64,000 bases of DNA from contig OZ316897.1 in assembly GCA_973895155.1 (NCBI GenBank), positions 12,299,832 through 12,363,831 of the forward strand. The letters are read 5' to 3'. Position 1 is the first letter of the stretch; each line of letters opens with the position of its first letter. The DNA comes from Marsupella aquatica. Its lineage: Eukaryota; Plantae; Marchantiophyta. Positions 61,993 to 63,960 of the stretch are shown piece after piece. The translations under genes and the position numbers were made by a program. Under the pieces are notes generated by a model that was not told where the DNA came from, did no database searches, and was given only the letters and a program-made list of their open reading frames with translations.

Positions 61993-63960
61993 ATGTCCGC
62001 TGCGTTGATTTCTGGATGGGGGACAGCGGCCGTTGGGGCCTCAGCCTCAGCTTCAGCTTCGGCTTTCCAATGCTCTAGGAAATTGGAACGGGCATCACCA
62101 ACAGCGCAGACTTTGATTCCGGTGGTTGGATTGGTGAACAAAACTAAAGATTGGAGCGCATTGCGGTTGCAGCGGCAGCCTCAGCAGCAAGACCGGCAGC
62201 AATCGTCGACGGTAGGAGCTGGCAGGCAGCAATGGATTGCACAAGCCAAGAACGAGGCATTGAGCGTTTGCAGACCATCGACCTCGACCCGCTTTTGGCG
62301 CATTGTGGCAGCAGCTCGTGGGTCAGCTGGAACAATTGCCGAACCAGAAGGATTTCAGGTACTCATCGTTGTTTCCGTTGTGGGTCTACCTCTCCGAAAC
62401 GGGGGCGAATTATGCATTTTCTGTAATTGATGATCCTCTTAATACCAATGCAATGCAGTAACCTTCGACGTGTGGTACTCTGGCGGGAATTATTTCCCTT
62501 GATAGGTTCTGCTGGACGTCAGTGTCTGAATACTTCACCTGCCTATCGCTCCACTTCCCCAGTAAACTTCTGTTCACGATCTTACCCGACTGCTCGCTAA
62601 ATAGTTGGAACCTCTTCCCGTTCTTCTCTGTCGGTACAGGTTACTGCGGTGCCAACGACCCCTATTGATGGTCAAAAGACAGGAACGAGTGGACTTAGGA
62701 AGAAAGTAAGCTTTCTCCATATTCCTTGAACAGGTGGTGGTTTTCATGGCAATTACGGTCTCTATGAACATATGCCTGTTGTCTATCATGATCTCTATGG
62801 CCTAGGACATTTACAAGCTCGGGTCCTAAGCATCTCTACTGTTTTTGAATTGAAGCATGTTGATGTGATCGATCGAGCAGTCTTTTAAACAGTCAACTCG
62901 TGAATCGTGTTTTCGATATTCTTCTTGGGATGGTCCTTTCGCAGGTGAAATTGTTCAAAGAGCCAAATTACTTGGCGAATTGGATTCAGGTAGTTTTTTT
63001 TCCCCTTCCCACTGGCCCAATCCTCGTGTTGTCCAATTTGCGGATCCGCGGAGTTTGAAATCAATCCTCTCATTCACGTACGAGATCCTAGATGTTTCAA
63101 AACTGCTTCTAGGATTTAGTGAGATTGTGGAGCAAAATGAGGAACACTTTTTTAGCTAAGAAGTTCTTTCTTAGAATTTATGGCGTGTGGATTTAATCAG
63201 CCAACACTGCCTTATGTCTGCAGTCATTGTTCAATTCTCTGCCACCTGAAGATGTGAGAGGAAGCACGCTGGTGCTTGGAGGTGATGGACGCTACTTCAA
63301 TAAAGAAGCATCGCAGGTATTTAGCTTGTAGTCTCGCAACTGACGTCTTTTCCCATGGCTTCAGGTTTGCCGCTATGCCATGTACCTGTTATGGGCCGTC
63401 TGACGATAGCATACCAGTTGCAACTGACTTCCCCGCTTCTTGATTGTAGATCATCATCAAAATATCGGCAGGAAATGGAGTGGGGAAGATCCTTGTTGGC
63501 AGGTTTGTTGTTCTTCTATCTTTTCCGAAGTGCAATTTTCTTGACACTAGTCATCGACTGGACTGTACCCACAAGTTGAACCAATTTTACGTAAAACGTC
63601 GCCGAGAGAAGGAATTTCTCATTGATTTCTCATGCCAAATTGGGTCCTAAATGAGTACGGCTAAATGCCTTTCAGACACGACCCATTAACTGCTCGCACA
63701 ATTGTAGTGTGGGTTTCAATCACAGTAGATTCTCCGTTGATGTCTGCCTGTAGACAGAGAATCTACTGTAATTAAACCCACACTGCTTTATTAGGTGTGA
63801 TAAGTGCTGTTAACAAGATACCTAATGGCCTGGTTTCCTTTGCAAAGATGGAACGATTTCTTGTAGTTTGTTCCCGAAAGTTCTTGCAATTAATTTAGGT
63901 TTATACAGGGAAGGCTATGCGTCTACCCCAGCAGTCTCAGCTATTATTCGCAAACGGAAG
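61993..63960 (+). CDS. Chimeric plastidial phosphoglucomutase paralog: Trx-x transit peptide fused to PGM; exons 61993-62358, 62640-62705, 62945-62989, 63224-63316, 63450-63502, 63909-63960; continues beyond the window
   Basis: Residues 1 to about 93 match the Trx-x N-terminus ([18 protein letters not shown]...[10 protein letters not shown]...VGAGRQQ.IAQA). The rest follows [119 protein letters not shown]. All borders are GT-AG and in frame. Confidence 0.88.

What the first reader, a model, noticed from the sequence alone, without database searches (positions are those of the whole stretch)
62640..63960. Substitution pattern indicates purifying selection on the chimeric PGM
Hand alignment of exons 2-6 (309 nt, 103 codons) to PGM1 exons (56897-56832, 56568-56524, 56316-56224, 56107-56055, 55628-55577) gives 24 nucleotide differences. 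Eighteen codons differ synonymously and 3 change the residue (T>A, S>P, Q>R); exon 4 alone has 8 synonymous and 0 replacement changes. Introns and the transit peptide are visibly more diverged and carry indels, yet every splice site is preserved. From my recollection of the plant plastid PGM consensus (PTKP, IRKRK), the copy holds the consensus residue at two of the three changed sites. This much divergence also makes a haplotype or assembly artefact unlikely.
Basis: partly seen in the sequence, partly recalled or inferred. Interest (0 to 1): 0.8.

Follow-up and report, generated by a model that had tools for sequence, protein, structure and literature searches.

The report
Selection keeps chimeric liverwort phosphoglucomutase
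A liverwort carries a second copy of its chloroplast phosphoglucomutase gene whose front end comes from the neighbouring thioredoxin gene, and the two copies differ almost only at silent positions, so the hybrid is likely a working gene, a new case of a known way that genes are born.

Summary
Pairwise omega is 0.04-0.05 (95% range about 0.01-0.15), introns 2-5 differ at 185 of 908 aligned sites, and all 11 visible splice sites are canonical. A neutral copy fits only if it carries about 15% or less of the divergence. A related organism shows the copy is not evolving more slowly than PGM1 (31/1077 vs 29/1591). Against Calypogeia proteins, none or one of the three replacements falls on the copy. 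Public contigs bridge the junction at single-copy depth, so this is no misassembly. They also show one further PGM copy over exons 7-9, 11-17 and 21-22, with no stop among 48 differences read and no exonic indel; its link to the chimera is inferred. Limits: dS could not be split by branch, exons 10 and 18-20 were not recovered, the borrowed transit peptide is not shown to be constrained (omega 0.63), and expression is untested. Verdict: likely a functional chimeric paralog with a thioredoxin promoter and transit peptide; a new member of a known kind.

The parts
61287..61992 (+). 5' non-coding region of the chimera, copied from the thioredoxin upstream region (46665-45924, minus strand); likely promoter and 5' UTR
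   Evidence: Self-BLAST 72-82% identity; JC distance 0.23-0.24
61993..62271 (+). Exon 1, thioredoxin-derived part: start codon, whole predicted transit peptide and about 8 further codons; no thioredoxin domain
   Evidence: 236 of 276 nt identical to 45923-45648, one 3-nt indel; aligns with Calypogeia thioredoxin P0124; no Pfam hit
62272..62358 (+). Exon 1, junction (about 62272-62290, exact point not resolvable) and PGM-derived part in frame; its last 18 residues equal Calypogeia PGM
   Evidence: junction bridged with 0 differences by contigs of runs X1 and X2
62640..62705 (+). Chimera exon 2 (8 nt differences: 4 synonymous and 2 replacement codons)
62945..62989 (+). Chimera exon 3 (2 synonymous)
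63224..63316 (+). Chimera exon 4 (8 synonymous, 0 replacement)
63450..63502 (+). Chimera exon 5 (2 synonymous)
63909..63960 (+). Chimera exon 6 (2 synonymous, 1 replacement codon); the gene runs off the window end in intron 6
49906..58425 (-). PGM1, parent plastid phosphoglucomutase: 22 exons, 653 aa, intact, native transit peptide; CpG-depleted
   Evidence: 88.6% identical to Calypogeia fissa P0002; CpG o/e 0.12-0.26 over 48001-58000
44577..45923 (-). Parent plastid thioredoxin (x-type by a recalled motif), 2 exons (45923-45531, 44786-44577), 200 aa, intact
58426..61286 (.). Spacer between the head-to-head genes (3.57 kb between start codons); apart from one 38-nt match it resembles nothing else in the window
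   Evidence: spanned by one X1 contig 56853-62017 with 0 differences

Best explanation
An intron-keeping, inverted duplicate of the plastid phosphoglucomutase gene carries the upstream region and transit-peptide coding sequence of the neighbouring thioredoxin gene, and its enzyme-coding exons have been held by purifying selection, so it likely makes a second, plastid-imported PGM under thioredoxin-type control. Shown: the two-parent anatomy, an open frame across the junction, canonical splice sites, replacement changes far below both synonymous and intron divergence, and both parents intact. Inferred: origin by one DNA-level template switch between two donors 12.5 kb apart on the same strand; age of about 0.24 substitutions per site for both borrowed parts; continuation into the second PGM copy seen in contigs; cleavage to a near-normal mature enzyme; retention through a changed expression pattern or extra dosage rather than a new activity.
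For: Omega 0.039-0.050 in exons 2-6. 3 of 231 replacement sites vs 185 of 908 intron sites differ, p 3e-16. A neutral copy is rejected at a 20% share of divergence (2dlnL 6.1) and at 50% (20.0). With the copy carrying 25% of the intron distance, 13.7 replacements are expected and at most 3 are seen, p 6e-4. Organism B differs from the window at 31/1077 sites in the copy and 29/1591 in PGM1. Thioredoxin-derived non-coding DNA (JC 0.23-0.24) and PGM introns (0.238) give the same distance. Later exons of the second copy: 119 codons, dS 0.41, dN 0.054, omega 0.13; the three indels listed lie in introns. Of 21 residue differences, 13 are PGM1-side, 5 copy-side, 3 ambiguous against both Calypogeia proteins. 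Contig depth over the chimera (21.6-22.9) matches PGM1 (17-22.5) in X1.
Against: Branch-specific dS could not be estimated: with the distant outgroup L001, omega(copy)=1 fits as well as the free model (LRT 0.27). Differences lean to G/C in the copy (18:5 in exons, 85:57 in introns), so more than half may sit on the PGM1 branch. Later exons have higher omega and copy-side changes at conserved sites (T317G, T in 74 of 80; K322E). The borrowed transit peptide has omega 0.63, not distinguishable from 1 (p 0.23). The data allow up to about a fifth of the copy's history to have been neutral (upper bound 0.02 of an assumed 0.10-0.12).
Confidence: 0.72

Rival explanations
1. The copy worked for most of its history but has recently decayed or is truncated; the low omega is a fossil signal.
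For: Four exons not recovered, 27 of 67 rows hidden, no contig link past the window end; T317G and K322E on the copy side; transit peptide omega 0.63; up to about a fifth of the branch could be neutral.
Against: No stop among 48 differences read for X1 and no exonic indel in 12 later exons with cover; 0-1 copy-side replacements in exons 2-6; the copy is also present in organism B. PGM1 has many derived residues in exons 18-19, which could itself explain why those exons fell under the 87% cut.
Confidence: 0.19
2. The synonymous excess arose on the PGM1 branch through methylation-driven CpG decay, and the copy is a young or slowly changing neutral sequence.
For: CpG count in introns 2-5 is 3 in PGM1 and 33 in the copy; differences lean to A/T in PGM1; by the distant outgroup 9 differences side with the copy, 3 with PGM1, 12 with neither; the three-taxon fit cannot exclude it.
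Against: Needs about 85% or more of all divergence on PGM1. Only 5 of 24 exon differences are CpG-type in the copy. The excess in introns is 28 of 185. The CpG-rich thioredoxin region is equally far from the copy. The copy is not slower against organism B.
Confidence: 0.05
3. Gene conversion from PGM1 keeps the copy's exons similar without selection.
For: The genes are neighbours and share identical stretches of 30 nt or more in exons (contig breaks).
Against: Conversion would erase synonymous differences too, yet dS (0.29-0.41) is at or above the intron distance (0.238).
Confidence: 0.03
4. The copy is an assembly or haplotype artefact.
For: It lies at the window edge; X1 may be the sample the window was assembled from.
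Against: 20% intron divergence; X1 contigs 56853-62017, 62004-62684 and 62657-63304 match with 0 differences at single depth; a second sample X2 bridges the junction; two samples of another organism, in another study, hold a diverged version.
Confidence: 0.01

Closest known systems
Chimeric (fusion) genes from DNA-level duplication, e.g. the 310 Oryza fusion genes (PMC9199173; abstract and section list seen)
   Same: Pieces of two parent genes joined in one frame, parents kept, purifying selection on gene pairs (the abstract reports this for 90% of pairs).
   Different: Here one parent gives only its upstream region and transit peptide, both parents are already plastid proteins, and the host is a leafy liverwort; expression and phenotype are untested.
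Passiflora rps7-trx-m3 (PMC7488351; abstract passage and 12 passages seen)
   Same: A thioredoxin gene's first exon supplies the plastid transit peptide to another protein.
   Different: There a plastid gene without a transit peptide entered the thioredoxin intron and is made by alternative splicing. Here a nuclear gene that already had a transit peptide was duplicated, and the peptide and promoter were swapped within exon 1 at a separate locus.
Plastid phosphoglucomutase MpPGM1 of Marchantia / AtPGM1 (10.1101/2024.11.20.624610; section 20 and passages seen)
   Same: Same enzyme family; PGM1 is 85% identical to Marchantia P0007 over 565 residues.
   Different: Marchantia and Arabidopsis each have one plastid PGM whose loss gives starchless plants; this genome has two, one with a foreign front end.

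Membership tests
Chimeric gene by DNA-level duplication | Sequence from two distinct parent genes | tested here: met
   61287-62271 matches the thioredoxin locus, 62310-64000 matches PGM1
Chimeric gene by DNA-level duplication | One open frame across the junction, introns kept | tested here: met
   122-codon exon 1 in frame with exon 2; five GT..AG introns
Chimeric gene by DNA-level duplication | Transcribed as one spliced mRNA | not testable with these tools
   No RNA run was offered for this stretch
Chimeric gene by DNA-level duplication | Purifying selection on the coding part | tested here: met
   branch split by indirect argument only
Plastid phosphoglucomutase (alpha-D-phosphohexomutase) | Domain I start with TSGLR motif | tested here: met
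   Exons 2-6 differ from PGM1 at 3 of 103 residues, none in the motif
Plastid phosphoglucomutase (alpha-D-phosphohexomutase) | Catalytic serine loop (ASHN) and metal loop (DGDGDR); motif roles recalled | tested here: inconclusive
   Outside the window. Contigs of both copies appear to merge at 55282-55311 and 53440-53469, which implies identity there, but letters near piece ends were not listed
Plastid phosphoglucomutase (alpha-D-phosphohexomutase) | Sugar-binding loop (GEESFG; role recalled) | tested here: met
   In the second copy only synonymous changes in 52284-52354; its link to the chimera is inferred
Plastid phosphoglucomutase (alpha-D-phosphohexomutase) | All four domains complete to the stop codon | tested here: inconclusive
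Plastid phosphoglucomutase (alpha-D-phosphohexomutase) | Cleavable plastid transit peptide | tested here: inconclusive
   First 88 residues: 4 acidic, 10 basic, 18% Ser/Thr, homologous to the thioredoxin presequence; no targeting predictor available
Thioredoxin fusion protein | Thioredoxin domain with WCGPC site | tested here: not met
   No Pfam hit in chimera exon 1; the parent has PF00085

The most novel reading that the evidence does not exclude
The chimera has become the conserved, main starch-pathway PGM of this lineage, driven by a thioredoxin promoter and kept unmethylated, while the original PGM1 sits in methylated chromatin and is drifting or specialising: a role reversal after a promoter and transit-peptide swap. 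It rests on 13 PGM1-side vs 5 copy-side replacements (p 0.10) and CpG o/e 0.12-0.26 vs 0.68-0.84.
Probability: 0.17. Interest if true: 0.6.

Novelty: new member of a known kind. Interest (0 to 1): 0.4.

Why it matters
Plastid PGM is a single, starch-essential gene in Marchantia and Arabidopsis. A retained duplicate that swapped both promoter and transit peptide with another plastid gene is a clean natural experiment on how interchangeable targeting peptides are and on how regulatory swaps preserve duplicates. The methylation contrast and the faster protein change in the original copy make paralog fate testable with existing kinds of data. As a class, chimeric genes under purifying selection are common in plants, so the surprise is moderate.

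Tried and rejected
No whole genome is held for this window, so the copy could not be read past 64000 directly. Searching longer proteins with chimera exon 1 scored none of 4602 candidates; weak evidence only. No RNA holder was listed among 4 runs; no evidence either way. One scan of metagenome contigs gave 1 locus, L001, an intronless plastid-type PGM 77% identical in protein; as an outgroup its dS was saturated (12-33) and the three-taxon model could not split dS. Exons 10 and 18-20 had no cover by a second copy at 87%; not read as absence. Transit-peptide omega and the last 19-24 codons of exon 1 showed no significant constraint. Relative rate PGM1 vs copy was not significant (13:5, p 0.10), nor was the rate contrast against organism B (p 0.08). 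Gene conversion and artefact were rejected as above. The PDB search did not name the thioredoxin subtype. Earlier findings: 0 near, 0 by PGM words, 0 by sequence, 5 by words with none on this locus. Paper searches listed no report of a thioredoxin-PGM chimera or a duplicated plastid PGM in a leafy liverwort; two searches returned 0 papers; most subscription journals are not in the library.

Full report
Observation. Aligning them gives 24 differences in 309 nt: 18 synonymous codons and 3 replacements (T>A, S>P, Q>R at PGM1 residues 102, 104, 201), with exon 4 at 8 synonymous and 0 replacement. NG86 gives dS 0.333, dN 0.013, omega 0.039, Fisher p 3e-11. A GY94 codon model gives omega 0.050, a profile range of about 0.01-0.15, and LRT 36.6 against omega=1. 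Introns 2-5 differ at 185 of 908 aligned sites (JC 0.238) with 39 gaps; the exons have none (p 7e-5). All five introns of the copy are GT..AG and the exon 6 donor is GT.

Anatomy. Self-BLAST shows the copy is an inverted duplicate with two donors. Positions 61287-62271 match the upstream region and first 93 codons of a thioredoxin gene (45923-44577, minus strand, 200 aa, intact). From about 62290 on it matches PGM1 (58425-49906, minus strand, 22 exons, 653 aa, intact). Exon 1 of the copy (61993-62358) is one open frame of 122 codons in phase with exon 2 and has no thioredoxin domain, so only the presequence was taken. The exact junction is blurred within about 62272-62290. The nearest database proteins are from the leafy liverwort Calypogeia fissa: PGM 88.6% and thioredoxin 74-81%. 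The x-type label for the thioredoxin is recalled; the PDB search did not settle it. Both borrowed parts are equally far from their donors at non-coding sites (JC 0.23-0.24 and 0.238), which fits one event. Kept introns mean a DNA-level event; a single template switch between donors 12.5 kb apart is the simplest route, and it is inferred.

Not an artefact. Four DNA-like runs hold the stretch, from two organisms and two studies. In X1, contigs 56853-62017, 62004-62684 and 62657-63304 match with 0 differences at depth 21.6-22.9, the same as PGM1; X2 also bridges the junction; X3 and X4 (organism B) hold a diverged version of the copy. X1 may be the source sample, so X2 and organism B are the independent support.

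Which branch carries the signal? This is the real question, since a pairwise omega does not assign changes. Replacements can be polarised with the two Calypogeia proteins: 102 and 201 changed on the PGM1 side, and 104 is ambiguous because Calypogeia has T and S there. The copy therefore has 0 or 1 replacement in 103 codons. Synonymous changes could not be polarised: the only DNA outgroup found (L001, 77% protein identity) is saturated, and omega(copy)=1 fits as well as the free model (LRT 0.27). PGM1 lies in CpG-depleted DNA (o/e 0.12-0.26) and the copy does not (0.68-0.84); introns 2-5 hold 3 CpG in PGM1 and 33 in the copy, and differences lean to G/C in the copy, 18:5 in exons and 85:57 in introns. 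So more than half the neutral change may be on PGM1. But a neutral copy needs about 85% or more there: it is tolerated at a 15% share (2dlnL 3.5) and rejected at 20% (6.1), 30% (11.1) and 50% (20.0). Three results argue the copy's share is far larger. Only 5 of the 24 exon differences are transitions at a CpG held by the copy, and the intron excess is 28 of 185. The CpG-rich thioredoxin region is as far from the copy as the PGM1 introns are. Since the split from organism B the copy has changed at 31 of 1077 sites and PGM1 at 29 of 1591; I used 2 copy and 3 PGM1 pieces of the 16 listed for organism B, leaving out overlapping duplicates, flanks and the two-contig place at 50523-51005. With a 25% share, 13.7 replacements are expected and at most 3 are seen (p 6e-4).

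Later exons. The window ends in intron 6 and no genome is held. Laying X1 contigs on PGM1 exons 7-22 at 87% showed one more PGM copy at single depth (17.7-24.8) over exons 7-9, 11-17 and 21-22, joined across diverged introns. It is most likely the rest of the chimera, but no listed contig links them. Of 67 difference rows, 40 were shown; one search adds 8 for X1 (6 exonic, 2 intronic) and 1 seen only in X2 and X4. Together they give 27 synonymous and 15 replacement codons and no stop. The three indels listed are intronic. Over the 119 codons in the stretches with listed rows, dS is 0.41, dN 0.054, omega 0.13; these windows are bounded by differences, so they overstate divergence. Across all 21 residue differences from residue 84 on, 13 are PGM1-side, 5 copy-side and 3 ambiguous (p 0.10). 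Two copy-side changes hit conserved sites: T317G (T in 74 of 80 homologs) and K322E.

The borrowed peptide. It differs from its donor at 40 of 276 nt with one 3-nt indel, omega 0.63, p 0.23. That is usual for transit peptides (own knowledge) but gives no proof of constraint. Its composition stays presequence-like, and it keeps the residues at the likely cleavage point that Calypogeia thioredoxin has. PGM's own last presequence residues follow the junction, so the mature enzyme would be near normal (inferred).

Mechanism. The best reading is a functional second plastid PGM expressed from a thioredoxin-type promoter and retained for its different expression or for dosage (0.72). Recent decay or truncation is the main rival (0.19). 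A PGM1-only synonymous excess (0.05), gene conversion (0.03; dS is not below intron distance) and artefact (0.01) are unlikely.

Known context. Fusion genes under purifying selection are common in Oryza (PMC9199173, abstract seen). A thioredoxin first exon gives rps7 its transit peptide in Passiflora (PMC7488351, passages seen). Marchantia and Arabidopsis have one plastid PGM and its loss gives starchless plants (10.1101/2024.11.20.624610, section 20 seen). Nine searches (listings only) showed no report of this chimera. Supplements were not read.

Verdict. Observation confirmed, interpretation supported with stated limits. A new member of a known kind; interest 0.4. The bolder reading, that the chimera has taken over from a methylated, faster-changing PGM1, has probability about 0.17.

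Noticed in passing
window 48001-60500 vs 61001-64000: Sharp CpG contrast: o/e 0.12-0.45 over PGM1 and its flanks, 0.68-0.84 over the copy; similar CpG-poor blocks at 22001-25000 and 31001-34000. Suggests different methylation of the two paralogs.
   Followed up: partly
window 50523-51005: Both organism B runs have two contigs here, one identical to the window and one with 35 substitutions and 14 gap letters, although B differs by about 2% elsewhere. Could be a second subgenome, introgression or a conversion tract.
   Followed up: no
window 56898-58128: PGM1 intron 1 is about 950 nt longer than the copy's and holds a high-copy repeat near 57425-57529.
   Followed up: partly
window 53746: PGM1 intron 12 has a GC donor in my gene model.
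   Followed up: no
window 61311-61654: A unit of about 120 nt is present three times in the copy's thioredoxin-derived upstream region, and about 275 nt of the donor (46349-46074) are missing; a further 38-nt piece of the same donor lies at 60988-61026.
   Followed up: no
window 49727-49910: Tandem repeat of about 89 nt (96% identity) just after the PGM1 stop codon.
   Followed up: no
window 6255-10208: Single open frame of 1318 codons with LRR and Roc domains.
   Followed up: no
window 2-778 and 947-1993: Ankyrin repeat and PGG-domain coding frames in the same phase, separated by a short gap; one gene with an intron or a broken gene.
   Followed up: no
window 28192-29556: 455-codon frame on the minus strand with no Pfam match.
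   Followed up: no
window 38646-38987: Exon of a rhomboid-family gene.
   Followed up: no
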